Part shown: piece after piece, positions 3,888 through 63,866 of the stretch
Position numbering within the stretch: position 1 is the stretch's first letter
Layout: each line of letters starts with the position of its first letter
Origin: Candidatus Limnocylindria bacterium
GTDB lineage: Bacteria; Patescibacteriota; Saccharimonadia; Saccharimonadales; JAGQNK01
Direction of reading: 5' to 3'
Length of the DNA stretch: 64,000 bases
Assembly (NCBI GenBank): GCA_035489815.1
Contig: DATHJH010000018.1
Location: forward strand, 3,027 to 67,026
Translations under genes and position numbers: made by a program
Notes under the pieces: model-generated
The model's input: only the letters and a program-made list of their open reading frames with translations
Database searches by the model: none
Told to the model about the DNA's origin: nothing

Positions 3888-4983
3888 AAGAGATTACTAC
3901 GAAGTTCTGGGTATAAGCAAAGGTGCCTCTGCTGATGAGATCAAGAAAGCTTTCCGCAAAGCTGCTGTGCAGCACCACCCGGACAAAGAGGGCGGGGATG
4001 AGGCTAAGTTCAAGGAAGTGAACGAGGCCTACGAGGTATTGAAGGATTCGTCCAAACGCCAGCGCTACGACCAGTTTGGCCATGCCGGGGTGGGCGGTAA
4101 CGGCGGGGGTGACCCATTTGGTGGATATAGCGGGTATGGCGGTCAGGCTGGTCAGAACACTAACTTTGACTTTGGTGACATGGGCCTGGGCGACATCTTT
4201 AGCAGCTTCTTTGGCGGGGGTGCCGGCCACCGCCAGGGCCGCCAGGCTCGCGGCCGCGACGTGGAAACAAATGTGGAGATCACCTTTGAACAGGCCGTCT
4301 TTGGCACGGAAGTAGACCTCAACCTCAGCCTGGAAGACGCCTGCGAACACTGCAAAGGCACCACCGCAGAGCCGGGCTACGAGCTGAGGTCTTGTGACGA
4401 GTGCGGCGGTTCCGGCCAGGTAACACGGGTTATGCGCACGGTCTTTGGCAACATCCAGCAGGCCACAGTTTGTCCCAAGTGTAAAGGTGCCGGTAAGGTG
4501 CCGGAAAAGGAATGCACCGTTTGTCACGGCAAAGGAACGCAGCGCAAATCCCAGACTATCGGGCTGAAGGTTCCTGCGGGGATTGACGACGGTGCAACCA
4601 TTCGCCTGCGCGAACACGGCGAAGCCATTGCCAATGGGCCAAAGGGCGATCTGTATGTAAACGTCCGGGTAAGGCCGCATAAAAAATTCACCCGTGAGGG
4701 CGACCTGATTCTAAGCGAAGAAACCGTGAGTATGGTAGATGCGGCGCTTGGCGTAGAAATAGACGTGGATACGGTGGACGGCCCCGTCCGCATGAAGGTA
4801 CCGGCCGGTACCCAGAGTGGCACAGACTTCAAACTATCCGGCCACGGCGTGACGCACCTGCGCCGGGAGACCCGCGGGGCCCACATTGTCACCATCCGTG
4901 TAGAAACCCCTACTAAACTCAGCAAAAAACAGCAGGAGCTGCTGCAGGAATTCAAAGGTGCCCGCAAAAAAGGTTTGTGGTAA
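3880..4983 (+). CDS. dnaJ: Co-chaperone DnaJ (Hsp40)
   Basis: J-domain (DYYEVLGISKGAS...HPDK), G/F-rich linker and four CxxCxGxG zinc-finger repeats. Start placed at MAKRDYYEVL inside the longer ORF 3850-4983. Confidence 0.95.
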   Translation: MAKRDYYEVLGISKGASADEIKKAFRKAAVQHHPDKEGGDEAKFKEVNEAYEVLKDSSKRQRYDQFGHAGVGGNGGGDPFGGYSGYGGQAGQNTNFDFGDMGLGDIFSSFFGGGAGHRQGRQARGRDVETNVEITFEQAVFGTEVDLNLSLEDACEHCKGTTAEPGYELRSCDECGGSGQVTRVMRTVFGNIQQATVCPKCKGAGKVPEKECTVCHGKGTQRKSQTIGLKVPAGIDDGATIRLREHGEAIANGPKGDLYVNVRVRPHKKFTREGDLILSEETVSMVDAALGVEIDVDTVDGPVRMKVPAGTQSGTDFKLSGHGVTHLRRETRGAHIVTIRVETPTKLSKKQQELLQEFKGARKKGLW

Positions 4984-5021
4984 ACTGGACTTTCTAGCTA
5001 AATAATCAACCAGGAGTGCTC

Positions 5022-5729
5022 ATGCCAGACCGAGGCGCTTTTTTTAATCCTGAAATTATGACATGCACAAATACTAATGGGCGCACCCTTGGCTTGCCCT
5101 GTGTTCCATGCCCTCTAGATGTTTACCCCGGCGAGTGCCCTCAGCTAAAAGTAGGCCAAGATCTAGCTAGTTTGAAGACTGATAATACCGCGCTAAGGCA
5201 GGAAGTCCAGACGCTTCTCCCTGCGGCACGGTATGATCCCTTAACGGGGTTACTAAGACCAGAGAGGTTTAGGGATGCTGCCCACAGAGTGCTTGAAAGA
5301 GCGCGCAAGGAAGGATCGGCCGCTCTGGCGCTGGTGGATCTCGATGATTTTAAGGGATATAACGACACCTTTAATCACAGTGCTGGAGACAGGCTCTTGA
5401 GAGCGGCTGGAGATTCCCTTTTGCGGCATATCCGACCCGGGGATGTCGTAGGTCGCCTAGGTGGTGATGAGTTCGGGGTGGCATATTGGTCGCCCGAACC
5501 GTTTGACGAAGGCAAGGCTGCCGGAAGGGGTGCTATGCTAAAGTCTGGCGTGGACGAGGATATTACTTATCAGGTTGAAATTGATCGACACCTCTTTCCC
5601 TCAGAGAACTTAGAGGCCATGCCCGAGGTAAGCATAGGAGTTGCTGAGTGGAGGCGAGACATGACCTTTACTGAAGCAAAGGATAAGGCAGATGAGCTTA
5701 TGTACAAGAATAAGCAACGAAAGAGATAG
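5022..5729 (+). CDS. GGDEF-domain diguanylate cyclase-like protein
   Basis: DLDDFKGYNDTFNHSAGDRLL and RLGGDEFGV motifs. AGGAG RBS lies 5 nt before the ATG at 5022. Confidence 0.8.
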   Translation: MPDRGAFFNPEIMTCTNTNGRTLGLPCVPCPLDVYPGECPQLKVGQDLASLKTDNTALRQEVQTLLPAARYDPLTGLLRPERFRDAAHRVLERARKEGSAALALVDLDDFKGYNDTFNHSAGDRLLRAAGDSLLRHIRPGDVVGRLGGDEFGVAYWSPEPFDEGKAAGRGAMLKSGVDEDITYQVEIDRHLFPSENLEAMPEVSIGVAEWRRDMTFTEAKDKADELMYKNKQRKR

Positions 5730-5809
5730 TAACTGCTGTACAAATTACTTCTGAAGGTGTAAAAATAAGTATAAGATGTGTATGATTACCCTCCAGAAGG
5801 CGCAAGGGG

Positions 5810-5920
5810 ATGAAAAAGCTTGATGCCGCCGGATTGGTGCCCCTTTTGTTGGTGATTTTGTGCGTAGTTCTTGCGGTTATCTACCTGGCCTATAGGCGAG
5901 TTGCCGAAATGCAAGGGTAG
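5810..5920 (+). CDS. Possible 36-aa single-TM peptide
   Basis: Translates as MKKLDAAGLVPLLLVILCVVLAVIYLAYRRVAEMQG. It is below the ORF-track size cutoff and is purely an ORF-plus-hydrophobicity call. Confidence 0.3.
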   Translation: MKKLDAAGLVPLLLVILCVVLAVIYLAYRRVAEMQG

Positions 5921-6075: not shown

Positions 6076-6591
6076 ATGTTTTATAATAATACATTTATGA
6101 GTGTTGGCGTTAAAAAACTCGTGGGACGTGCCGAACTGGTCAGTTTTCCGGAGCTGGGCGGGTTAAGTATGGCAGCGCGTGTGGATACCGGGGCGAAGGT
6201 CTCTGCCATTGCCGTGACAAGTGTCAGGCAGCAGGGCGATGTGCTGGAGGCTGTGTTTTTTGGTGATCCCGCAGAGACGGTTTACCGCTTTGAAACCTAT
6301 AAAAAGTCGCTGGTTGCCAGTTCTACCGGTCAGGTGGAGCGGCGCTTTAAAGTCCGGCTGCTGGTGGTGCTGGGCGGGAAAAAAATCCGCGCCTCGTTTA
6401 CCCTGGCTGATCGCAGCGCACGGACATACCCGGTGCTGATTGGTCGCAACGTGCTACTAGGCAAGTTCCTGGTGGACGTCAAGGAGGGTACAGCCTTTCG
6501 TCGCAAGCCTTCTCTAAAAAAGTTACAGCGCCCCCCAACGCCCCATGGTAATCTGAAAACCCTGGAAGAGGAATTGGAGGAAAGGGTATGA
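6076..6591 (+). CDS. RimK-associated retropepsin-like / ATP-dependent zinc protease family protein
   Basis: VGRAELVSFPELG...ARVDTGAKVSAI and YPVLIGRNVL motifs. Located directly upstream of rimK, as is typical. Start uncertain (6076 or 6097). Confidence 0.65.
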   Translation: MFYNNTFMSVGVKKLVGRAELVSFPELGGLSMAARVDTGAKVSAIAVTSVRQQGDVLEAVFFGDPAETVYRFETYKKSLVASSTGQVERRFKVRLLVVLGGKKIRASFTLADRSARTYPVLIGRNVLLGKFLVDVKEGTAFRRKPSLKKLQRPPTPHGNLKTLEEELEERV

Positions 6592-6699
6592 ATCCCGTTA
6601 CAACCCAAAAGGCCAACAAAGTATATCTATACATACGAACCATACACACACGTATTCAACCGTTAGTCTATGACTGGAAGGGAAGTGGGTTGTAACGGG

Positions 6700-7602
6700 A
6701 TGAACATAGCAATTTTATCTGCTGGTCCGGGCAATTACGCCACCAAACGACTCAAAGAAGAGGCTCTGGCCCGCGGGCACACCGTGCGGATTATCAACCA
6801 CAAGCGCTGCTACATGACCATCGAACGCAGTCATCCAGTGGTCCGCTACGAGGGCGAGGACTTGTCCGACATTGATGTGATCATTCCGCGTATCGGTTCC
6901 AGTGTGACCAAGTACGGCACAGCCGTGGTCCGCCAGTTTGAAATGCAGGGTGTGTATTCCACCGCCACATCCCTGGCGATTAACCGTTCGCGTGATAAGC
7001 TGCGGGCTATCCAGATTCTGGCCCGGGCCGGTGTGGATATCCCAAAGACGGTCTTTTCCCGCGAAACAGCGGAAGTAGAGGACCTTATTCAGCAGGCTGG
7101 TGGTGCGCCGCTTATTATTAAAGTTGCCCGCGGTACCCACGGCAACGGTGTGGTGTTGGCAGAGACAGCCAAGGCTGCTCAAGCGGTGATGCAAGCCTTT
7201 TATGTAGAGGGCGTGAACTTTCTGGTGCAGGAATTTGTCAAAGAATCTGCCGGTGAGGACATTCGTGCCTTTGTGGTGGGCGGCAAGGTAGTGGCCAGTA
7301 TGAAACGCCAGAGCCTTGATGATGACTTCCGGTCCAACCTGCACCAGGGCGGCGAAGGCACCACTGTTAAACTGACAGAGGAAGAACGCAAAACCGCCCA
7401 AAAAGCCGCCAAAGCCATGGGCCTTTCCATCTGCGGCGTGGACATGATGCGCAGCGAACGCGGGCCATTGGTGCTGGAAGTAAACTCCAGCCCGGGCCTG
7501 GGTATAGAAAAAGTTACCAGCCGCAACGTGGCCAGCAAAATAATTGAACACATAGAACAAAATGCACGAGGCAAGCGTCGTCGCGACCGAATTGGCGCGT
7601 AA
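6700..7602 (+). CDS. rimK: RimK-family ATP-grasp ligase (ribosomal protein S6 glutamate ligase-like)
   Basis: MNIAILS start, ATP-grasp motifs (IIKVARGTHGNGV, EFVKES.GEDIRAFVVGG, CGVDMMRSERGPLVLEVNSSPG). Confidence 0.9.
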   Translation: MNIAILSAGPGNYATKRLKEEALARGHTVRIINHKRCYMTIERSHPVVRYEGEDLSDIDVIIPRIGSSVTKYGTAVVRQFEMQGVYSTATSLAINRSRDKLRAIQILARAGVDIPKTVFSRETAEVEDLIQQAGGAPLIIKVARGTHGNGVVLAETAKAAQAVMQAFYVEGVNFLVQEFVKESAGEDIRAFVVGGKVVASMKRQSLDDDFRSNLHQGGEGTTVKLTEEERKTAQKAAKAMGLSICGVDMMRSERGPLVLEVNSSPGLGIEKVTSRNVASKIIEHIEQNARGKRRRDRIGA

Positions 7603-8365: not shown

Positions 8366-8518
8366 TTGCAAAAACAGCGATTGAACCCAAGGTCAAAAGT
8401 GCCGCGCCGAAACAACGCCCCTAAAGGGGCGGTTTTGTTCATTGTCTTGTAGTTACGGGAACAAAACAAGTTTCGGCTTGACTCGGCACTTTTGACCTTG
8501 GGTTCATCGGTTTTGCAA
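8366..8518. repeat. Long branched palindromic intergenic element (H1)
   Basis: Perfect 22-bp arms GAACCCAAGGTCAAAAGTGCCG (8383-8404) and its reverse complement (8484-8505), extended by imperfect outer pairing. Inner stems are GCCGAAAC/GTTTCGGC, AACGCCCC/GGGGCGGTT and TTGTTC/GAACAA. Confidence 0.85.
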
Positions 8519-9787: not shown

Positions 9788-10822
9788 CTACCGGGTGTTC
9801 GTAATCGTGTATTGCTGGCGCAGGCTGACATAAGCGCTCCACAAGAACGTGACCAGCACCGCCAGCATGATCAGTACAACTTGGGTCAACGGCATGGGCT
9901 CGCTGCTGCTCATTAACGCCAATACCAGCAATACCAGTTGTGCGGTATTGACTCGTCCTATAGGAGCCAGTAAAGGTCTCTGTTCTTTCCACTGGGTAGT
10001 CTTGGCTAGTTCGTTAAACAAGACCAGGTTCACGCCGGCAAGAAAGATAACGGGCAGTGCCACAAAAGGAACGGGTGTATCCGAAATTTGTACGCAGACG
10101 ATAGTAATACCCAGGGCATAGACTGTCAACGCGGCTTTTGCCACGGTATCTACTGAATGACGCAGCAGGAAGGTCAGTTTTCCGTGTTTTTTGTCTCCAT
10201 CCACGTCCCGAAAGTCTTTCAGCATGACACGCGAGCAAAATAATAGATACAACGCGGCAAGAATACCAAGGCTCGCTGCATCAATGGATCCCGAAAACGC
10301 TATCAGGCCAAGGCTGTATGGAAAGGCGACGTAACCCAGCGGCAGCAATGCTTGAGCCAGTCCGCCCCGGTAAGATATTCGTACCGGTGGCATGGAATAT
10401 ATCCAGTTCAGAAAAACAGTTGCCAGCATGACAGCGCCCGCAGTCCAGGTAATAGCGTATCCGGCCATGACACCGGTGAGTGCGGCCAGGACGGCTACCC
10501 GCCAGACAGTTTTTTTGGATGCGTTGCCAGTAACAAGCGGACGGTCCTTGTCGTGCTTGAGATTGATTTGATCAATCTCATAATCTGCCAGGTCGTTGAT
10601 GGCTGTGCCGTTTATGTACCACATGGCGATACATACCAGGCATAGGCCCAGCTCAAGCAAGTGACCGGTTATCAGCTTGCCGATCGGGGTGCCCGAGTTA
10701 CTGGCGACTACGCTGGCGGCAATGACTAATTGCAGGCAGACGATGGTGTAGGTGGGTACTCGTAGCAGGCCGCGGATTGTTTGCAACAAGGGGTGTTTTG
10801 CAAACCAGGTTAATGAACCCAT
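9788..10822 (-). CDS. UbiA-family prenyltransferase
   Basis: Multi-TM protein with Asp-rich motifs NDLADYEIDQINLKHDKDRPLVTG and DFRDVDGDKKHGKLTF. Start set at MGSLTWF (10822). Confidence 0.8.
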   Translation of the reverse strand: MGSLTWFAKHPLLQTIRGLLRVPTYTIVCLQLVIAASVVASNSGTPIGKLITGHLLELGLCLVCIAMWYINGTAINDLADYEIDQINLKHDKDRPLVTGNASKKTVWRVAVLAALTGVMAGYAITWTAGAVMLATVFLNWIYSMPPVRISYRGGLAQALLPLGYVAFPYSLGLIAFSGSIDAASLGILAALYLLFCSRVMLKDFRDVDGDKKHGKLTFLLRHSVDTVAKAALTVYALGITIVCVQISDTPVPFVALPVIFLAGVNLVLFNELAKTTQWKEQRPLLAPIGRVNTAQLVLLVLALMSSSEPMPLTQVVLIMLAVLVTFLWSAYVSLRQQYTITNTR

Positions 10823-11082
10823 TTCAAAATCCCACTCCAGCCTCAATCCATTCTGGCGGCACAACGGGGTCCCCACGAAACTTGTTTCGTGGGGTATACG
10901 CGCTTTGTCCGTTTCGCTTCGAGATCGTGGCCTTTTTTGGCAGTGCAGCGAGCTTAGCTCGCTGGCAGGCCAAAAAAGAGACCATGTCAGCGTATCTTCG
11001 GATACGCTTTGTCGCGAGAACGAACAAATCGTACTCGCCAGAATGCCCTTCGCTTAACAGACTGGGGTTTTGAAATGGGTTC
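10815..11082. repeat. Long (268-nt) multi-hairpin palindromic intergenic element (H2)
   Basis: Terminal arms GAACCCATTTCAAAATCCC (10815-10833) and GGGGTTTTGAAATGGGTTC (11064-11082) with 1 mismatch. Nested stems include ATTCTGGCG/CGCCAGAAT, CCCCACGAAAC/GTTTCGTGGGG, CAGCGAGC/GCTCGCTG and AGCGTATC/GATACGCT. Confidence 0.8.
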
Positions 11083-14427: not shown

Positions 14428-14613
14428 GGATTCGAGCTCTTAGAACCCATCCAGGATCTCTTCCTCTGACTCCGACCAGTTTTCGCATGCAATCCAACTG
14501 CCTTTTGCTCCGAAAGGTACCTACAGGTACCTTTCAAATCAAAAAACAGCCGGCTTACACCCGAAAACTACTCTCGGCAAGGAGAAAAGATCCTGGATGG
14601 GTTCTTAGAATCC
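14428..14613. repeat. Long nested palindromic intergenic element (H3)
   Basis: Perfect 18-bp arms AGAACCCATCCAGGATCT (14442-14459) and reverse complement (14588-14605). Inner stem AGTTTTCG (14478-14485) / CGAAAACT (14562-14569). Apical perfect hairpin GAAAGGTACC-TACA-GGTACCTTTC (14512-14535). Confidence 0.85.
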
Positions 14614-49051: not shown

Positions 49052-49172
49052 GACCTCCCACTGTCTCTCCAGTGTAAGAACATAAATGCCCGTATCAAGG
49101 TCGTTCAGCCGTGGGGTGCTCCACCTTGACACGGACATTTATAACCTTACCCATCAGACAGAGTGGGAGGTC
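49052..49172. repeat. 120-nt imperfect hairpin in a divergent intergenic region (H4)
   Basis: GACCTCCCAC (49052-49061) pairs with GTGGGAGGTC (49163-49172). The inner 19-nt arms 49083-49101 / 49123-49141 match at 17 of 19 positions. Confidence 0.75.
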
Positions 49173-58960: not shown

Positions 58961-59024
58961 CCGTACTTATATTCACAGCATAAGCTTTTTGACATGTACT
59001 AGTTGGTAAAGTATTATTGCCGTG

Positions 59025-60608
59025 ATGGGTAAATGTTTTAGTGCTAGTTTATTTATTTTGGTGATCCTTGTGCTGGTGACAGTCCGGCCTGGAGTGACCG
59101 GAGCGGAAGTTGGGGGTGCCACCAGCACAATCCTCATCAGTGAAATACAGCTGAACGGTGATGATGTGCGCCCGCAGTTTGTAGAGTTGGTGAATACGAC
59201 GGCCCAGGCTATCGACCTGACGGGCTGGGTGTTGGAGTACGCCAAGCCAGCCTTTGGACCGGAACTATGCACGGCTGCGGACTGGTTGGCTGCGGCCCCA
59301 AGCGGCACGGCCGCTGGCTTTGAGCTATCTGGTGTGATTGCGGCAGGCGGGGTGGTGGTGTTTGAGCCGCCGCCGGGGCAGATCAACAAAACAACGGCTG
59401 GCGCGCTGAGGTTGTTGTCCCCGGAGGTTGCTGGTGTGCGTGTACAACATGACCTGCTGGGCTGGGGTTTGGCGACGAGTCCGGCCCCGTGCCTGGAAGG
59501 AAAGCAGACCCGGGTACCGCCCAAGTCCAAAAGTCTGCAACGGTATGTGGAATGTGACGGCGGAGCGGTCGTAGACACTAATAACAATCAGCTGGATTTT
59601 GGAGTGGCCTCGCTGCCAAACCCCACGGCCTTGAACCCATTGCAGCCGGAAAGCTGCGGTCCGGAAGTGCCGGCGTCGGCGTGCGACGGGGTGGTTATCA
59701 GCGAGATCCTACCCAACCCGAAAGGGGCGGACCTGGCCAAAGAATTCATCGAACTATTCAACCCGACGGCTTTCCCCTTGGCGTTGGACGGTTGCCAGCT
59801 GGGGCTGGATAGCGCTGCCAAGCCCTATACGTTTCCAGCAGGTACAAGTTTGCAGCCGGAGGAATATCGAGCCTTTTCCGACGAACAAACCGGCCTGATC
59901 CTGTCTAATGCTGCGGGTGGTGAAGTAATGCTTGTCAGCGAAAAGGCGGAGTACGCTTACCGTTATCCGGCTCACTTGAAAGACGACGAGTCCTGGGCCT
60001 CGGTCAGCAGCCTGTGGCAGGCGACAGATGTGCCGACGCCGGCTGCCCCCAATCAGCCCGCCCAGCCACAAGCAGAAAAACCGGCTGTGGGCAGCCCGGC
60101 GCTGGCACCCTGCCCGGATGGCAAGTTCCGTAACCCCCTCACCAATAGATGCAAATCGCTCGTTGCAACTGCAGTCGCCTCAGCTGCAGGCTTGACTCCC
60201 TGCCAAGCCGGCCAAACGCGCAACCCAGCCACTAACCGGTGCCGCAGCACCGTGGTTGCGGCCTCTTCCGCACTCACCCCATGCAAACCAGGGCAGGAAC
60301 GCAACCCGGCGACCAACCGGTGCCGCAGCGTGTTGTCGGCCGCCACAACGCTGAAGCCCTGCGACGCCGGGGAGGAGCGTAACCCCAAAACTAATCGCTG
60401 CCGAAAGGTTGCTACGACCCTTGCGTCGGCTGGCTCTAAGCCTTCAGAAGGCCAAAACTCAGGCTCGACGGCAAGGAGCAGGATCAACTACGGCATCCTG
60501 GGACTGGTCGGTGCTTCGGCCATCGGCTACGGCGCTTACGAATACCGTAATGACTTTCGTCATAAACTCGCCGCCCTTAAATCTCGCGTGGGTAAGTCTG
60601 GCAAGTAG
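59025..60608 (+). CDS. Secreted, C-terminally anchored protein with two lamin-tail-like (LTD) domains and four Cys-bounded RNPxTNRC repeats
   Basis: Signal peptide. LTD-like ILISEIQLNGDD...FVELVNTT and VVISEILPNPKGADLAKEFIELFNPT. Repeats CPDGKFRNPLTNRCKS, CQAGQTRNPATNRCRS, CKPGQERNPATNRCRS, CDAGEERNPKTNRCRK, followed by a C-terminal TM. Confidence 0.7.
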   Translation: MGKCFSASLFILVILVLVTVRPGVTGAEVGGATSTILISEIQLNGDDVRPQFVELVNTTAQAIDLTGWVLEYAKPAFGPELCTAADWLAAAPSGTAAGFELSGVIAAGGVVVFEPPPGQINKTTAGALRLLSPEVAGVRVQHDLLGWGLATSPAPCLEGKQTRVPPKSKSLQRYVECDGGAVVDTNNNQLDFGVASLPNPTALNPLQPESCGPEVPASACDGVVISEILPNPKGADLAKEFIELFNPTAFPLALDGCQLGLDSAAKPYTFPAGTSLQPEEYRAFSDEQTGLILSNAAGGEVMLVSEKAEYAYRYPAHLKDDESWASVSSLWQATDVPTPAAPNQPAQPQAEKPAVGSPALAPCPDGKFRNPLTNRCKSLVATAVASAAGLTPCQAGQTRNPATNRCRSTVVAASSALTPCKPGQERNPATNRCRSVLSAATTLKPCDAGEERNPKTNRCRKVATTLASAGSKPSEGQNSGSTARSRINYGILGLVGASAIGYGAYEYRNDFRHKLAALKSRVGKSGK

Positions 60609-60631: not shown

Positions 60632-61114
60632 ATGAGAGTTATTGGCATTGACCCTGGCACCGGCATCCTTGGTTTTGGCGTGGTGGATGTTGACTTGCGG
60701 GGTAAAGCGGTGTTGGTAGACGCGGGCGTTATTCGTACGCCGGTCCGACAGGCAGACAGCGACCGGTTACTTACTATTTATAATGAACTGCAGGTCATTA
60801 TAAAAACCACCAAGCCGCGGGTAATGGCGGTAGAAAAACTATTCTTTTCCCAAAACGTCACCACCGCTATGAGTGTGTCCCAGGCCCGGGGGGTGGTATT
60901 GCTGTTGGGCAGGCAATACAACTTGGAGCTGCACGAATACACCCCGCTGCAGATAAAGCAGTCTATAACTGGCTACGGCAAAGCGGATAAAAAGCAAATA
61001 CAGGAAATGGTCCGGGTGATGCTGGGACTGCGGGAAATCCCAAAACCGGATGACTGTGCTGATGCTCTGGCCACGGCCCTCTGTCATTCTATGCACAAAC
61101 GCTACGCCGACTAG
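60632..61114 (+). CDS. ruvC: Holliday junction resolvase RuvC
   Basis: MRVIGIDPGT..., AVEKLFFSQN, and the C-terminal DDCADALATALCH. Confidence 0.95.
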   Translation: MRVIGIDPGTGILGFGVVDVDLRGKAVLVDAGVIRTPVRQADSDRLLTIYNELQVIIKTTKPRVMAVEKLFFSQNVTTAMSVSQARGVVLLLGRQYNLELHEYTPLQIKQSITGYGKADKKQIQEMVRVMLGLREIPKPDDCADALATALCHSMHKRYAD

Positions 61115-61127
61115 TGATCACCAGAGC

Positions 61128-61820
61128 GCTAGAGGACGGACCCTTAGCAAGGGACCTAGCAGGATTTTTTACTGATCGGCGAGCTCCCAATGGATTTCAT
61201 CCAGTATAGCTTTATGACCTTCGTAATCCCTAACAAACTCAAGGTATTGTTCCTGTGAAGGAAAGATGTCTAGTATTTGGTCGGGTTTGACCCAGTCGGC
61301 CTGAGCGTTTCCCAGGTAGTAGCGAAGGCTCGAATATTCATAAGTTTCCCACTCCTTGGGGTTCAGGTGTATGTAGCGTGATATGTGCTCTAGATAGCTG
61401 TCTTCTGAAATTCGGCTTGCCTTATAACGACTCTGAAAAACAGGCCCCACACGTTTGTAGCGTCTATTAAAATACATGCTATAGCTTGTCATCAGGGATC
61501 TCATGAGCTCTACGATAGCCTTCTCGTCACTCTGAAAGAGTAGTAAGTGAAAGTGGTTTGACATAAGACAATACGTCAGTAGCTTGGCCCTTTTACCATA
61601 ACAAGGATACGCGACGCGGGCTGTGCTTAAAGAGGGTTCATTTGACAGGTATCGTTTGAGCAGGCCCAAAAAGTACATATAGTCTTGCTCATCCAGGTAA
61701 ACTGCCTGTTTGGCGACCCCCCTGGAATATATGTGATAGTACTGATCTGCAGCATACTGTTTAACAATATTTCGTCCCGGCATGCACTCATCATATGCTA
61801 GAGGACGGACCCTTAGCAAG
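61128..61820. mobile_element. RAYT/IS200-like Y1 transposase cassette flanked by 24-bp perfect direct repeats
   Basis: GCTAGAGGACGGACCCTTAGCAAG occurs at 61128-61151 and again at 61797-61820. The cassette lies between ruvC and ruvA. Confidence 0.65.
61169..61783 (-). CDS. REP-associated tyrosine transposase (RAYT) / IS200-like Y1 transposase family protein
   Basis: YHIYSRGVAKQAVYLDEQDYMYFLGLL, HUH motif YCLMSNHFHLLL, NRRYKRVGPVFQSRYKA and YIHLNPKE. Start at MPGRNIV (61783). Confidence 0.85.
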   Translation of the reverse strand: MPGRNIVKQYAADQYYHIYSRGVAKQAVYLDEQDYMYFLGLLKRYLSNEPSLSTARVAYPCYGKRAKLLTYCLMSNHFHLLLFQSDEKAIVELMRSLMTSYSMYFNRRYKRVGPVFQSRYKASRISEDSYLEHISRYIHLNPKEWETYEYSSLRYYLGNAQADWVKPDQILDIFPSQEQYLEFVRDYEGHKAILDEIHWELADQ

Positions 61821-61845
61821 AGCGGGATGTGGGATAATGGTGGTT

Positions 61846-62424
61846 ATGATTGCGACATTAAATGGCGTTGTTGCCGAAAAGTTGGCAGAGTTGGTAGTTC
61901 TGGACGTCCAGGGGGTGGGCTATGGCTTGCTGGTACCGATAGAAGAGTACGGCCGTTTGGCCGTTGGTGATTCGGCTAGGTTTTACGTCTATGAACACAT
62001 CCGTGAAAATGCTCATGACCTATACGGATTTTTGCATACGGACACCAAACGGCTCTTTGAGCACCTGTTGGAGGTGAATGGGGTAGGACCAAAGATGGCC
62101 CTGAATATCCTGGGCATAGGATCAGCAGAGGCTGTTCGTCAGGCCATTGCTGCCGGTGACACAAAATTTATCCAAGCTGCCAGCGGGGTAGGTAAGCGTG
62201 TCGCGGAGCGTGTCGTCGTTGACCTAAAGGATAAGGTCGGGTTGGCGAGCACCGCGTCTGATTCAATATTCGTCGGAAATTCTACGCTCAACCAGGATGA
62301 AGCAACGCAGGCGCTGATTGCCCTCGGTTATACGCCCCAAGATGCTGCGAATGCCCTTTCGCAGATTGACGAGAAACTCAGTACAGAAGACCGTATCAAA
62401 CAAGCCCTGAAAGGTGCTCGATGA
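61846..62424 (+). CDS. ruvA: Holliday junction DNA helicase subunit RuvA
   Basis: MIATLNGVV..., helix-hairpin-helix LLEVNGVGPKMAL and ASGVGKRVAERV, C-terminal domain III. Confidence 0.92.
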   Translation: MIATLNGVVAEKLAELVVLDVQGVGYGLLVPIEEYGRLAVGDSARFYVYEHIRENAHDLYGFLHTDTKRLFEHLLEVNGVGPKMALNILGIGSAEAVRQAIAAGDTKFIQAASGVGKRVAERVVVDLKDKVGLASTASDSIFVGNSTLNQDEATQALIALGYTPQDAANALSQIDEKLSTEDRIKQALKGAR

Positions 62425-62831
62425 AACTGTATGTGACACGGCTCCAAGAAGGCCAAGACTTACTAGCAGGAATAGTTGGGTTTGCGCAAGCAAAAGCACT
62501 GACTTCAGGAGTGGTACTAAGCGCGCCCGGCAGTTTATCCCAAGCTTCTATCCGTACGGCTTTTTCAAGAGACGAAGAGCCGGCAAATCGTAGATATGCC
62601 GGTCCGCTTGAGATTGTTTCTTTGATCGGAACCGTCTCGTCAGATGGAAACCCACACATACACATTTCTTTCTCAGATCGAAACGGCCAAGTTTTTGGCG
62701 GGCATGTAAGTAAAGGGTGCATCGTAGATACTACCGTTGAACTTGTGCTGGGGAATGACTCAAGCCTGAACTTTACCCGTGAACTTGATCCTGCAACCGG
62801 TTTTAATGAATTGAAGGTGAGCGATATTTAG
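62421..62831 (+). CDS. PPC (DUF296) domain DNA-binding protein
   Basis: GPLEIVSLIGTVS...PHIHISFSDRNGQVFGGHV pattern. Inserted between ruvA and ruvB with 4-nt and 0-nt junctions. Confidence 0.75.
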   Translation: MKLYVTRLQEGQDLLAGIVGFAQAKALTSGVVLSAPGSLSQASIRTAFSRDEEPANRRYAGPLEIVSLIGTVSSDGNPHIHISFSDRNGQVFGGHVSKGCIVDTTVELVLGNDSSLNFTRELDPATGFNELKVSDI

Positions 62832-63866
62832 ATGGCGATTGAACGCATTGTAAACACCGGTGCAAGCGACGATGACGACCAGGAAGTAGAGCTGGAGGTT
62901 ACGCTCCGCCCGCGGGATTTTGCTAATTACGTTGGCCAGGAGCGGTTGAAGAAAAATCTGCAACTGGCTATTGCCGCGGCCAAAAAGCGGGGCGAACCGC
63001 TGGACCATGTGCTGCTGCATGGCCCGCCAGGACTCGGCAAGACAACCATGGCCACGGTCATCGCCAACGAAATGGGCGCCAACATCCGGGTGACCTCCGG
63101 CCCGGCCGTAGAACGGGCAGGGGACCTGGCCAGCCTGCTGACTAACCTCCAGGACGGCGACATTTTATTCATTGACGAGATTCACCGCTTGCACCGGGTG
63201 GTAGAGGAAGTGCTGTACAGCGCCATGGAGGATTTCAAACTGGACATTATGCTGGGCAAGGGGCCAAGCGCCCGCAGCTTGCGGCTGGATTTGCCAAAGT
63301 TCACGATTATTGGCGCAACGACCCGCATGGGCGCCCTGGCGGCACCGCTGCGCGACCGGTTTGGCATGACCCACCGGCTGGAATTTTATACGCCGCAGGA
63401 AATACACCAGGTCATAGAACGCGCCGCACAGATTCTGAATGTAAAGATTCATAAAGAAGCAGCAGAAAAGCTGGCCACCCGCGCCCGGCTAACACCGCGT
63501 ATTGCCAACCGCCTGCTCAAACGCGTACGTGACTATGCAGATGTAAACGGCGACGGCATCATTGACCAGGGCATGAGCGAAAAGGCGCTGCTGCTGCTGG
63601 AGGTAGACGAACTGGGGCTGGACCCGGCCGACCGCATGCTGTTGAATGCCATCATTGACAGCTATAACGGCGGCCCGGTGGGCGTGGAAACCATAGCGGC
63701 CCTGACTGCTGAAGAGCGGGGAACCATCGAGGATTTTTACGAACCGTACCTTATGCAGATCGGGTTAATCGAGCGTACGCCACGCGGTCGAAAAGTCACC
63801 CCCAAGGCCTACACGCACTTGGGCAAAACCCAACCTGACTCCACCGGCCAATCTTCGCTCATATAG
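62832..63866 (+). CDS. ruvB: Holliday junction DNA helicase RuvB
   Basis: [13 protein letters not shown], Walker [10 protein letters not shown], Walker [17 protein letters not shown]. Confidence 0.97.

What the first reader, a model, noticed from the sequence alone, without database searches (positions are those of the whole stretch)
61128..61820. RAYT/IS200-like Y1 transposase gene inserted between ruvC and ruvA, bounded by 24-bp perfect direct repeats
Seen: GCTAGAGGACGGACCCTTAGCAAG occurs at 61128-61151, 14 nt after the ruvC stop, and again at 61797-61820, 26 nt before the ruvA ATG. The two copies are 669 bp apart. Between them lies a single minus-strand gene with the HUH motif (YCLMSNHFHLLL) and the YIHLNP tyrosine region of the IS200-like/RAYT family. 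Established: IS200/IS605 elements and RAYTs do not normally create long target duplications, and RAYTs are usually flanked by inverted REP hairpins. Inference: this is either an atypical single-gene cassette that duplicated 24 bp of the ruvC-ruvA spacer, or a domesticated RAYT. If it is a RAYT, it offers a candidate mobilising enzyme for the unusually long palindromic intergenic elements seen elsewhere in this window (8366-8518, 10815-11082, 14428-14613, 49052-49172).
Basis: partly seen in the sequence, partly recalled or inferred. Interest (0 to 1): 0.6.

Follow-up and report, generated by a model that had tools for sequence, protein, structure and literature searches.

The report
RAYT-like gene flanked by cognate hairpins
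A single-copy relative of the REP-associated tyrosine transposases sits between ruvC and ruvA in what is almost certainly a Saccharibacteria genome; the "24-bp direct repeats" around it are two copies of the short DNA hairpin that brackets this gene family everywhere, not an insertion scar, and the arrangement is old and vertically inherited.

Summary
GCTAGAGGACGGACCCTTAGCAAG occurs only at 61128-61151 and 61797-61820, bracketing a 204-aa minus-strand HUH/Y1 gene (61169-61783).

The target-duplication reading is wrong. In about 80 relatives, homologous genes in many different neighbourhoods are bracketed by the same kind of 20-25 nt imperfect palindrome. Its centre is conserved (GGAC-N-GTCC or GGTCCGTCC). 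Its outer stem is alike within a genome (20.2 of 21 nt) and different between genomes (12.5 of 21).

The protein has the class-2 TnpA_REP signature Y---NP, and its model best matches E. coli TnpA_REP (4ER8). The ruvC-Y1-ruvA position recurs in at least 26 other Saccharibacteria. Those proteins form an exclusive clade and co-diverge with RuvA/RuvC. A sister clade sits upstream of recA-recX. Two relatives have empty ruvC-ruvA spacers with no hairpin.

Solo copies of the window's exact hairpin exist elsewhere, including in frame inside uvrC. The upstream hairpin overlaps a predicted promoter of the gene.

Verdict: a REPtron-like, domesticated RAYT locus of an atypical, low-copy, non-GTAG type. 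The proposed link to the window's long palindromes is not supported. The association with ruvA, recA, uvrC and recX is unexplained.

The parts
61128..61151 (.). 24-mer copy 1, the hairpin on the 3' side of the Y1 gene. The imperfect palindrome proper is 61128-61148 (GCTAGAGGACGGACCCTTAGC). It lies in the 54-nt spacer between the convergent ruvC and Y1 genes.
   Evidence: Covariance model R1 scores it at E=8e-5. Homologous downstream hairpins occur in 50 of 79 relatives against a 3.7% background.
61169..61783 (-). Y1/HUH gene, 204 aa, TnpA_REP-like (class 2 TnpA_Y1, RAYT-like). HuH is H77-F-H79; the catalytic Tyr is Y137 in Y-I-H-L-N-P; the C-terminal extension is helical.
   Evidence: Pfam Y1_Tnp 42.3 bits. 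NCBIfam RAYT 41 bits, below the cutoff of 80. H77, H79, Y137, N141 and P142 are invariant in 20 homologues. AF2 model pLDDT 87. Best PDB match is 4ER8, E. coli TnpA_REP.
61790..61819 (-). Predicted sigma-70-type promoter of the Y1 gene: TTGCTA, 18-nt spacer, TATGAT, then 6 nt to the ATG, which implies a leaderless mRNA. The spacer and the -35 box are made of the upstream hairpin.
   Evidence: Consensus scan (the number of hits in the region is not above chance). The TTGC...GCATA(T/A)A(A/C)T pattern at a fixed 10-13 nt from the ATG recurs across the ruvA-adjacent clade. Function is inferred.
61797..61820 (.). 24-mer copy 2, the hairpin on the 5' side of the Y1 gene. The palindrome proper is 61797-61817. 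It lies between the divergent Y1 and ruvA starts.
   Evidence: R1 scores it at E=1.9e-6. The proximal upstream hairpin ends 10-13 nt before the ATG in most clade members.
61830..61838 (+). TGGGATAAT, an extended -10-like box 7 nt upstream of the ruvA ATG at 61846. It corresponds to the block ATTATC(C/T)CACA conserved in relatives.
   Evidence: Sequence. The block is conserved in ruvA-adjacent loci, and a similar GAGATAAT is present in the empty-site relative L094. Function is inferred.
60632..61114 (+). ruvC, the neighbour on the 3' side of the Y1 gene.
   Evidence: Pfam RuvC 159.5 bits.
61846..62424 (+). ruvA (alternative start 61837), transcribed divergently from the Y1 gene. It is followed by a PCC-domain gene (62421-62831) and ruvB (62832-63866).
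   Evidence: Pfam RuvA_N, HHH_5 and RuvA_C; PCC; gene table of L001/L002.

Best explanation
This is a REPtron-like locus. A vertically inherited, low-copy ('domesticated') tyrosine HUH enzyme of the TnpA_REP/RAYT kind is bracketed by two copies of its cognate imperfect-palindrome DNA hairpin.

Shown:
- The gene belongs to a very large Saccharibacteria family with intact HuH and Tyr residues.
- Family members are bracketed by hairpins of one motif class. The outer stems are matched within a genome and differ between genomes.
- The ruvA-adjacent position is ancient.
- Solo copies of the same hairpin occur elsewhere in this lineage, including in frame in uvrC.

Inferred, by analogy with E. coli TnpA_REP and IS608 TnpA:
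- The protein binds the hairpin as folded single-stranded DNA and can cut and rejoin next to it.
- That activity seeded and keeps alike the few hairpin copies.
- Because the upstream hairpin forms the -35 box and spacer of the gene's own promoter, and abuts the ruvA promoter, binding there probably also autoregulates the gene.

The 24-bp identity reflects the sequence constraint and concerted evolution of the two binding sites. It is not a duplication of the target.
For: Protein:
- Y---NP signature and invariant HuH and Tyr residues; Quentin et al. 2018 give Y---NP as the class 2 signature.
- PF01797 aligns only over profile positions 36-119, as reported for class 2. A true IS200 TnpA beside locus L037 scores 119.5 bits over nearly the whole profile.
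- The best structural match is 4ER8, TnpA_REP bound to a REP hairpin, at E=2.6e-6, ahead of the IS608 and ISDra2 TnpA structures.

Hairpins:
- 94 of 124 motif instances in 666 kb of relatives' loci lie within 150 nt of the gene, a zone that is about 3.6% of the sequence.
- 64 of 81 loci have one on at least one side and 35 on both, against a 3.7% background.
- The upstream and downstream copies match at 20.2 of 21 nt within a genome and 12.5 of 21 between genomes.
- Nine of 11 stem pairs show changes on both sides (the set was selected for pairing).
- L088 (Y1 76% identical, DNA about 72%) keeps the identical 21-mer on both flanks.

Vertical history:
- 25 of 81 loci are in the ruv context, and L088 and L092 add two more.
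- The ruv-context proteins form an exclusive clade of 23 out of 23.
- Mantel r=0.46 against RuvA/RuvC, with 0 of 2000 permutations as high; mean identity is 57% for both Y1 and RuvA.
- Paralogues within one genome are only 48-80% identical.

Dispersal:
- The exact 21-mer occurs solo in four distinct metagenome contexts, two of which are the same point of uvrC in two related organisms.
- Genome-specific solo copies lie 2-3 kb from the gene in L044, L067, L071 and L072.
- 18 of 120 UvrC orthologues carry hairpin-encoded inserts at one linker site, and a doublet there was verified in DNA.

Empty sites: L093 and L094 have no hairpin.

Promoter overlap.
Against: - No biochemical data exist for this family.
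- NCBIfam's RAYT model scores 41 bits against a cutoff of 80.
- The hairpins lack the GT[AG]G foot of canonical REPs.
- In this window the hairpin is imperfect: 7 Watson-Crick pairs, one G-T pair and two mismatches in 10 positions. It is not always the preferred fold of the naked strand.
- Only the two flanking copies occur in 64 kb, so REP-like abundance is not shown for this genome. I could not assign the solo copies to the same organism.
- The flanking copies here are in direct orientation, which resembles IS200/IS605 ends more than classic inverted REP pairs.
- The correlation with Ruv divergence is moderate (0.46, against 0.78 for RuvC versus RuvA).
Confidence: 0.7

Rival explanations
1. 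An autonomous but now immobile IS200-like insertion sequence. The two direct hairpins are its left-end and right-end subterminal structures. The whole unit of about 700 bp (hairpin, gene, hairpin) inserted long ago and is decaying or frozen.
For: - The size (693 bp from repeat to repeat) and the single-gene layout with same-strand hairpins at both ends resemble IS200 (my own knowledge of IS200/IS608).
- Empty ruvC-ruvA spacers lack the hairpin, so the inserted unit included both hairpins.
- 33 of 81 family members sit in unique neighbourhoods, and some genomes have 2-4 copies.
Against: - The protein has the class 2 Y---NP signature, not the motif of IS200 TnpA, and is 204 aa with a conserved C-terminal extension.
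- No near-identical copies occur within a genome; paralogues are 48-80% identical.
- ORFs are intact and of similar length in nearly all 80 relatives' loci (201-207 aa in most; 224-227 aa by a frame walk in five; two loci are cut by contig ends), with catalytic residues invariant in the 20 aligned homologues. The gene is as conserved as RuvA over the same divergence, so it is maintained rather than decaying.
- Hairpins also spread without the gene.
Confidence: 0.15
2. A co-opted DNA-binding regulator or processing factor for recombination and repair genes. The palindrome is its operator or substrate at ruvA(B), recA-recX and uvrC, and the transposase chemistry is secondary or lost.
For: - Two exclusive, deeply syntenic clades sit directly beside ruvA (divergent, sharing the promoter region) and directly upstream of recA-recX.
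- Solo hairpins occur in uvrC, inside recX, and just upstream of ruvB in L072.
- The upstream hairpin overlaps the gene's own promoter and abuts ruvA's -10 box.
- The gene is retained under purifying selection in genomes of about 1 Mb. This runs against the reported trend for class 2 genes to occur in large genomes.
Against: - The geometry differs between the two contexts: the 5' end faces ruvA, but the 3' end faces recA.
- Outer stems vary freely between genomes while staying complementary, which is typical of a folded-DNA substrate and not of a duplex operator.
- The catalytic HuH and Tyr residues are invariant, so the chemistry is probably retained.
- The 33 scattered copies neighbour unrelated genes.
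- REPs inside repair genes are already known from other phyla, with no function assigned.
- My sample of solo copies is biased towards the vicinity of Y1 genes.
Confidence: 0.1
3. One reading: insertion of a single-gene cassette duplicated 24 bp of the ruvC-ruvA spacer (a target-site duplication).
For: There are perfect 24-bp direct repeats immediately outside a transposase-like gene.
Against: - The repeat belongs to a motif class that brackets homologous genes in ruv, recA and dozens of unrelated contexts.
- In many loci the flanking copies are inverted or occur as doublets.
- In L088 the identical hairpin is flanked by different bases, so the repeat is 23 nt with shifted borders.
- Empty sites contain no copy of it.
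- Y1/HUH enzymes do not generate target duplications (established for IS200/IS605).
Confidence: 0.02

Closest known systems
E. coli REPtron: tnpA_REP (RAYT, PDB 4ER8) flanked by REP/BIME sequences (Ton-Hoang 2012; Messing 2012, PMC3479197)
   Same: A single-copy Y1/HUH gene with the Y---NP motif. It is the best structural match. The gene is bracketed by its cognate imperfect palindromes, copies of the palindrome occur elsewhere in the genome, and inheritance is vertical.
   Different: Only 14% sequence identity, and below the NCBIfam RAYT cutoff. The hairpins are shorter (about 21-25 nt, 1-5 nt loop), have a GGAC-N-GTCC/GGTCCGTCC centre and lack the GTAG foot. Here there is one copy per side in direct orientation, not inverted pairs. 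The apparent copy number is very low. The host is a Saccharibacterium with a genome of about 1 Mb.
TnpA_Y1 class 2 subclasses with atypical flanking structures (subclass 2.6 in Bacteroidetes, and class 3; Quentin et al. 2018, PMC6006769)
   Same: The genes are flanked by non-GTAG secondary structures found by inspection, with copies elsewhere in the genome. They have a core-domain extension with a conserved serine (here YSSL, S151/S152).
   Different: I could not test subclass assignment, because the paper's profiles are not available. The HuH-to-Tyr distance here is 58 aa, against a median of 82 in subclass 2.6. That survey includes no CPR or Saccharibacteria.
IS200/IS608 (IS200/IS605 family, TnpA_IS200)
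   Same: HUH/Y1 fold, an overall size of about 700 bp, and subterminal hairpins in the same orientation at both ends. The upstream structure overlaps the expression signals of the gene.
   Different: The Y motif and protein length differ. There are no multi-copy near-identical elements, the locus is syntenic over deep divergence, and the hairpins at the two ends are identical rather than merely similar.
TIRtrons/TIRYTs, and intragenic REPs or RPEs (Di Nocera et al. 2013, PMC3733652)
   Same: A subgroup of the family (for example L022, L038, L058, L066) is flanked by inverted repeats made of the hairpin plus about 12 nt. Hairpins are inserted in frame into proteins, notably DNA repair proteins (uvrC and recX here; uvrA, uvrB, uvrD, polA, recBCD and dnaE2 in that paper).
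   Different: The repeat sequence family and the phylum differ. Here the same linker site of UvrC carries genome-specific hairpin variants in 18 of 120 close orthologues.

Membership tests
TnpA_Y1 class 2 (TnpA_REP-like / RAYT sensu lato; Quentin et al. 2018) | HuH motif and catalytic Tyr both present | tested here: met
   H77-F-H79 and Y137 are invariant in 20 homologues down to 58% identity.
TnpA_Y1 class 2 (TnpA_REP-like / RAYT sensu lato; Quentin et al. 2018) | Y-motif signature Y---NP (class 1 and class 3 use Y----Q) | tested here: met
   Y137-I-H-L-N141-P142, with N141 and P142 invariant.
TnpA_Y1 class 2 (TnpA_REP-like / RAYT sensu lato; Quentin et al. 2018) | Y1 transposase fold, closest to TnpA_REP | tested here: met
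   AF2 model pLDDT 87. The Foldseek top hit is 4ER8 at E=2.6e-6, ahead of ISDra2 and IS608 TnpA. Pfam Y1_Tnp scores 42.3 bits against 23, aligned only partially as described for class 2.
TnpA_Y1 class 2 (TnpA_REP-like / RAYT sensu lato; Quentin et al. 2018) | Low copy number within a genome, with divergent rather than near-identical copies | tested here: met
   Almost all protein clusters were seen on 1-2 contigs. Genomes with 2-4 copies have paralogues 48-80% identical.
REPtron (RAYT gene flanked by its cognate palindromes) | The gene is bracketed by a specific palindrome family, matched within the genome | tested here: met
   In the window itself the two copies are identical over 24 nt.
REPtron (RAYT gene flanked by its cognate palindromes) | The same palindrome is dispersed elsewhere in the genome in many copies | tested here: inconclusive
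   Only two copies occur in the 64 kb window. The exact 21-mer is found solo in four distinct metagenome contexts, two of them the same uvrC point in two related organisms. Genome-specific solo copies occur in L044, L067, L071, L072 and L096. Copy number appears low. The whole genome was not available.
Canonical RAYT (NCBIfam NF047646 equivalog; GTAG-REP systems) | Score at or above the curated NF047646 cutoff | tested here: not met
   41 bits against a cutoff of 80.
Canonical RAYT (NCBIfam NF047646 equivalog; GTAG-REP systems) | REP carries a 5' GT[AG]G foot | tested here: not met
   The consensus of 85 flanking hairpins is nTTTnTnGAGGACnGTCCTCTAnnAnn, with no GTAG or GTGG foot.
Domesticated RAYT (Bertels et al. 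2017 criteria) | Predominantly vertical transmission with housekeeping-like behaviour | tested here: met
   Synteny in at least 26 genomes, an exclusive clade, Mantel r=0.46 (0 of 2000 permutations as high), and conservation equal to RuvA.
Domesticated RAYT (Bertels et al. 2017 criteria) | The enzyme binds and cleaves its hairpin | not testable with these tools
   Needs purified protein and ssDNA oligonucleotides.
IS200/IS605 insertion sequence | Short TnpA of about 130-150 aa matching PF01797 end to end | tested here: not met
   The protein is 204 aa and matches only profile positions 36-119 at 42 bits. A genuine IS200 TnpA next to L037 scores 119.5 bits over positions 2-110.
IS200/IS605 insertion sequence | Multiple near-identical copies at variable sites | tested here: not met
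   There are no near-identical copies, and this clade is fixed next to ruvA.
Insertion with target-site duplication | The flanking repeat derives from the target and is unrelated to repeats at other insertions | tested here: not met
   The same motif class occurs at all family loci, and empty sites lack it.

The most novel reading that the evidence does not exclude
In Saccharibacteria this Y1/hairpin pair is not merely a tolerated relic. It would be a host system tied to recombination and repair. Two ancient orthologue lineages are locked to the 5' side of ruvA and of recA-recX. Their cognate hairpins sit in promoter regions and inside uvrC and recX. The enzyme would sense or process single-stranded or hairpin DNA there, acting for example as a damage-responsive switch or a site-specific ssDNA editing step. 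That would give a concrete host function for a RAYT.
Probability: 0.12. Interest if true: 0.8.

Novelty: new variant of a known kind. Interest (0 to 1): 0.5.

Why it matters
What RAYTs do for their hosts has been an open question since 2010. Known systems live in large proteobacterial genomes with hundreds of REPs, which makes cause and effect hard to separate. Here a RAYT-like family with thousands of members is kept intact in genomes of about 1 Mb. It has only a handful of cognate hairpins per genome, sits at fixed positions next to ruvA or recA, and has hairpins written into uvrC and recX. If confirmed on complete genomes, this is a minimal and tractable RAYT-hairpin system. It extends the kind to the Candidate Phyla Radiation, and it runs against the reported trend that class 2 Y1 genes accompany large genomes. 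For annotation, it also shows that perfect direct repeats around a Y1 gene should be read as enzyme recognition sites and not as target duplications.

Tried and rejected
1. Target-site duplication: rejected, as set out under the rival explanations.
2. Hairpin as an intrinsic terminator: there is no T-run, and the consensus scan finds no terminator at either copy. The upstream copy lies in a promoter and not in a transcript.
3. RNA-level element: Rfam found nothing at gathering thresholds in five recA-context loci, and there are no tRNA or tmRNA genes. The conserved sequence downstream of the hairpin in those loci is the region 5' of recA, probably its promoter and leader.
4. Link to the four long palindromes: no core motif, no covariance-model hit better than E=2.6, and no similarity among them.
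5. Sequence search of solved structures matched only the HuH segment of ISDra2 TnpA at E=0.013. The fold search was needed to reach 4ER8.
6. A conserved 'foot' or cleavage tetranucleotide: none is evident in the 85-hairpin alignment. The eight copies of the window's own hairpin mostly have C/T-T just 5' of the stem, which is too few to interpret.
7. Stem covariation statistics are strong, but the hairpins were selected for pairing. So I rely instead on their position next to the gene and on the within-genome versus between-genome contrast.
8. One uvrC locus (P0243) returned no DNA.
9. I could not obtain the rest of the source contig (163 kb), so the copy number in this genome is unknown.
Full report
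OBSERVATION

The 24-mer GCTAGAGGACGGACCCTTAGCAAG is present at 61128-61151 and 61797-61820 on the + strand and nowhere else in the window, even with three mismatches. Shuffles gave none. The repeat is exactly 24 nt. Between the copies lies one minus-strand ORF. Its best start is the ATG at 61783 and its stop is at 61169, giving 204 aa. It carries NHFHLL and RYIHLNP and passes Pfam Y1_Tnp at 42.3 bits against a cutoff of 23, aligned only to profile positions 36-119. ruvC (60632-61114) and ruvA (from 61846, or 61837) are confirmed by Pfam.

WHAT THE PROTEIN IS

The family is very large: 4,901 hits, nearly all about 204 aa. Those that carry names are mostly Saccharibacteria or Saccharimonadales, and almost every cluster was seen on only one or two contigs.

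In an alignment of 20 members down to 58% identity, H77, H79, Y137, N141 and P142 are invariant, and a C-terminal extension is conserved. Y---NP is the signature that Quentin et al. (2018) give for class 2 of the TnpA_Y1 superfamily, the TnpA_REP-like proteins. They also report that PF01797 aligns only partially to class 2. For contrast, a genuine IS200 TnpA found beside locus L037 scores 119.5 bits over almost the whole profile.

The NCBIfam RAYT equivalog model scores only 41 bits against a cutoff of 80, so this is not a close relative of proteobacterial RayT. An AlphaFold model built from the alignment is confident (pLDDT 87). Its best match among solved structures is 4ER8, E. coli TnpA_REP bound to a REP hairpin. 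The ISDra2, IS608 and IS200 transposases come next.

WHAT THE REPEATS ARE

I fetched 80 loci encoding relatives from named genomes and compared the flanks of each gene. In most loci the gene is bracketed by a 20-25 nt imperfect palindrome with a conserved centre (GGAC-N-GTCC, or the asymmetric GGTCCGTCC/GGACGGACC) and variable, complementary outer stems. Examples are TTTGGGAGGACTGTCCTCCCAAA, TGCGTCAGGGTCCGTCCTTGACGCA and TGCTAGAGGCCAGGCCTCTAGCA.

- A motif scan found 124 instances in 666 kb. Of these, 94 lie within 150 nt of the gene, a zone that is about 3.6% of the sequence.
- By a looser palindrome score, 64 of 81 loci have one on at least one side and 35 on both. The background rate is 3.7% per 150-nt window.
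- Within a genome the upstream and downstream copies match at 20.2 of 21 positions (11.2 of 12 in the outer stem). Between genomes they match at 12.5 of 21 (5.1 of 12).
- Nine of 11 stem pairs change on both sides across the set. That set was selected for pairing, so I give this little weight.
- Orientation varies: direct in 20 loci and inverted in 13. Several genomes have inverted doublets on each side (L017, L026, L032). One subgroup has hairpin-plus-12-nt terminal inverted repeats.

The window's 24-mer is therefore two copies of the cognate hairpin, GCTAGAGGACGGACCCTTAGC plus three bases, and not duplicated target. In this genome the hairpin is imperfect: 7 Watson-Crick pairs, one G-T pair and two mismatches. 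As a naked strand it folds only weakly.

CONSTRAINT ON THE HAIRPIN

An exact-match scan of metagenome contigs for the 21-mer returned L088. This is a relative whose Y1 protein is 76% identical and whose DNA over the locus is 71.6% identical. It has the identical 21-mer on both flanks, between ruvA and ruvC. Its shared repeat is 23 nt with different borders. That fits a conserved site and does not fit a target duplication.

AGE AND INHERITANCE

Twenty-five of the 81 loci (24 relatives plus the window) have the gene next to ruvA on the opposite strand, usually with ruvC on the other side. L088 and L092 add two more. In L092 the gene was not called by the gene table.

- The ruv-context proteins form an exclusive clade in a neighbour-joining tree, 23 of 23.
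- Their pairwise distances correlate with those of RuvA and RuvC (Mantel r=0.46; 0 of 2000 permutations as high). RuvC against RuvA gives 0.78.
- They are as conserved as RuvA, with mean identity of 57% for each.
- Genomes with several copies have paralogues only 48-80% identical.
- Two relatives with RuvC 75-79% identical have ruvC followed by ruvA after 56-60 nt with no hairpin (L093, L094). A third has a DUF4234 gene there (L095).

So the unit that was once gained, or later lost, is hairpin-gene-hairpin, and in the window's lineage it has been resident for a long time.

DISPERSAL OF THE HAIRPIN

Within the window, a covariance model built from 85 flanking hairpins finds only the two flanking copies; the next best hit is at E=1.9. 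Elsewhere, the exact 21-mer occurs without a Y1 gene in four distinct metagenome contexts from the same soil study series:

- L085/L087, apparently intergenic.
- L089, intergenic, where it abuts a second hairpin with a different stem.
- L091 and L086/L090, inside uvrC in two related organisms. There it lies in frame and encodes A-K-G-P-S-S-S.

Among the 120 closest UvrC orthologues, 102 have a fixed 19-residue linker at that point. Eighteen have insertions, and many of the inserted peptides back-translate to family hairpins with other stems (AQGRTLC, VQGRSL, ASRTDPDA...LRQGPSLT). For P0317 the doublet was verified in DNA at L096 5142-5168 and 5171-5197, at E about 1e-7.

Genome-specific solo copies also lie 2-3 kb from the gene in L044, L067, L071 and L072. 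In L044 and L071 they are inside recX, with no change in length. In L072 the copy is just upstream of the ruvB start.

In-frame REPs in surface linkers, often in excinuclease and recombination genes, have been described in other phyla. Copy number here seems low. I could not count it for this genome.

EXPRESSION SIGNALS

In the ruvA-adjacent clade the proximal upstream hairpin ends 10-13 nt before the ATG in most loci (L021, at 22 nt, is an exception). The sequence reads TTGC-stem-loop-stem-GCA-TA(T/A)A(A/C)T, then 6-7 nt, then ATG. In the window the consensus scanner reports TTGCTA, an 18-nt spacer and TATGAT at 61819-61790 on the minus strand, 6 nt from the ATG. The number of such hits in the region is not above chance, so the argument rests on conservation.

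This places the hairpin inside the gene's own promoter and implies a leaderless mRNA. On the other strand, TGGGATAAT (61830-61838) lies 7 nt before the ruvA ATG. It is conserved in relatives, and a similar box, GAGATAAT, is present at the empty site of L094. Autoregulation by binding at the hairpin is an inference.

MECHANISM

The best-supported reading is a REPtron-like, domesticated RAYT locus. By analogy with TnpA_REP and IS608 TnpA, the protein recognises the folded imperfect palindrome on single-stranded DNA and cuts and rejoins beside it. This accounts for the matched flanking copies, the occasional doublets, the solo copies and the in-frame inserts. The gene itself stays put and is inherited vertically. 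The fold, the motifs, the hairpin association, the synteny and the dispersal are shown. Binding, cleavage and regulation are inferred.

RIVALS

- A frozen IS200-like element. The direct orientation and the empty sites favour it. The class 2 motifs, the purifying selection and the lack of duplicates count against it.
- A co-opted regulator of repair genes (next section).
- Target duplication, which is refuted.

UNEXPECTED ASSOCIATION

A second exclusive clade (23 of 23) lies between pilB and recA-recX, with its downstream hairpin about 100 nt before recA. Together with ruvA, uvrC, recX and ruvB, this is a notable concentration on recombination and repair genes.

Several points argue against reading much into it. 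The 33 remaining family members sit in unrelated neighbourhoods. The geometry differs between the ruvA and recA contexts. My sample of solo copies is biased towards Y1 loci. I therefore treat a functional link as the most novel reading that the evidence does not exclude, at about 0.12.

LONG PALINDROMES

The elements at 8366-8518, 10815-11082, 14428-14613 and 49052-49172 are each self-complementary. They do not contain the hairpin core, do not match the model, and are unrelated to one another. Nothing ties them to this gene.

NOVELTY

I found no paper linking RAYTs or REPs to Saccharibacteria or Patescibacteria. The kind of system (RAYT, REPtron, intragenic REPs) is known. The new elements are:

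- the lineage;
- the non-GTAG hairpin type;
- single direct copies that overlap the promoter;
- very low copy number in genomes of about 1 Mb;
- deep synteny with ruvA and recA.

I rate it a new variant of a known kind, with moderate interest.

Noticed in passing
L053 4001-4618 (Y1), 4761-5813 (recA), 6478-7083 (recX); the same layout in 22 other loci (L019, L030, L031, L035 and others): A sister clade of the Y1 gene is fixed between pilC-pilB (minus strand) and recA-recX. Its hairpins are in direct orientation, and a conserved block (GTTTGCA, 17 nt, TATACC ... TACAACATTATTTGATGCAGGT) lies between the downstream hairpin and recA. No Rfam family or tRNA matches that block.
   Followed up: partly
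L091 9275-9295; L086 2187-2207; L096 5142-5197: Cognate hairpins are inserted in frame in one linker of UvrC, between GGKGQL...ARDE and IPFIGLAK. Of 120 close orthologues, 18 carry an insert there with genome-specific stems, including an inverted doublet; the other 102 have a fixed 19-residue linker.
   Followed up: partly
L044 ~6728-6750; L071 ~7170-7192: The genome's cognate 23-nt hairpin lies inside recX and encodes FGRTVLPK where L053 RecX has GLGEQILKK. Protein length is unchanged, so the hairpin appears to have replaced sequence rather than added it.
   Followed up: no
L089 9745-9798: A solo copy of the window's exact hairpin abuts a second hairpin with a different stem (TGCACAGGGTCGGGCCCTGTGCA). 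This is a heterodimer like those described for REP doublets.
   Followed up: no
window 8366-8518, 10815-11082, 14428-14613, 49052-49172: Four long intergenic palindromes, each with its own terminal inverted repeats of 18-23 nt. They are unrelated in sequence to each other and to the Y1 hairpin. What they are remains unknown.
   Followed up: partly
window as a whole; P0001, P0121: NCBI labels the source MAG 'Candidatus Limnocylindria bacterium' (Chloroflexota). However, the closest named relatives of Y1 are all Saccharibacteria, Saccharimonadales or Patescibacteria, the ruv genes travel with it on those contigs, and the few named RuvC relatives agree (apart from one 'Verrucomicrobiae' label). 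The bin label is probably wrong. A related contig is likewise labelled 'Verrucomicrobiae'.
   Followed up: no
window 59022-60608: The 528-aa protein upstream of ruvC has Lamin Tail Domains and four tandem C-terminal repeats of the form G-x-x-R-N-P-x-T-N-R-C-(R/K). Homologues sit upstream of ruvC in several relatives.
   Followed up: no
window 62421-62831: A PCC-domain gene (PF03479) lies between ruvA and ruvB, overlapping the ruvA stop by 4 nt. In relatives ruvA and ruvB are adjacent or separated by other genes, so the ruv cluster is a hotspot for small insertions (DUF4234, nucleoside deoxyribosyltransferase, and a 406-aa protein of unknown function in L092 and L095).
   Followed up: no
L037, gene starting 63 nt downstream of the Y1 stop: A genuine IS200-type TnpA (Pfam Y1_Tnp 119.5 bits) lies directly beside a class-2 Y1 paralogue in genome JAZKJC01, which has four Y1 paralogues.
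   Followed up: no
L092 5366-5392 and 6045-6071: In this relative the flanking hairpins have much longer stems (CCACACCCCTGCACCGGGTCGGACCCGGTGCAGGGGTGTGG). The Y1 gene between them was missed by the public gene call, which extended ruvA instead.
   Followed up: no
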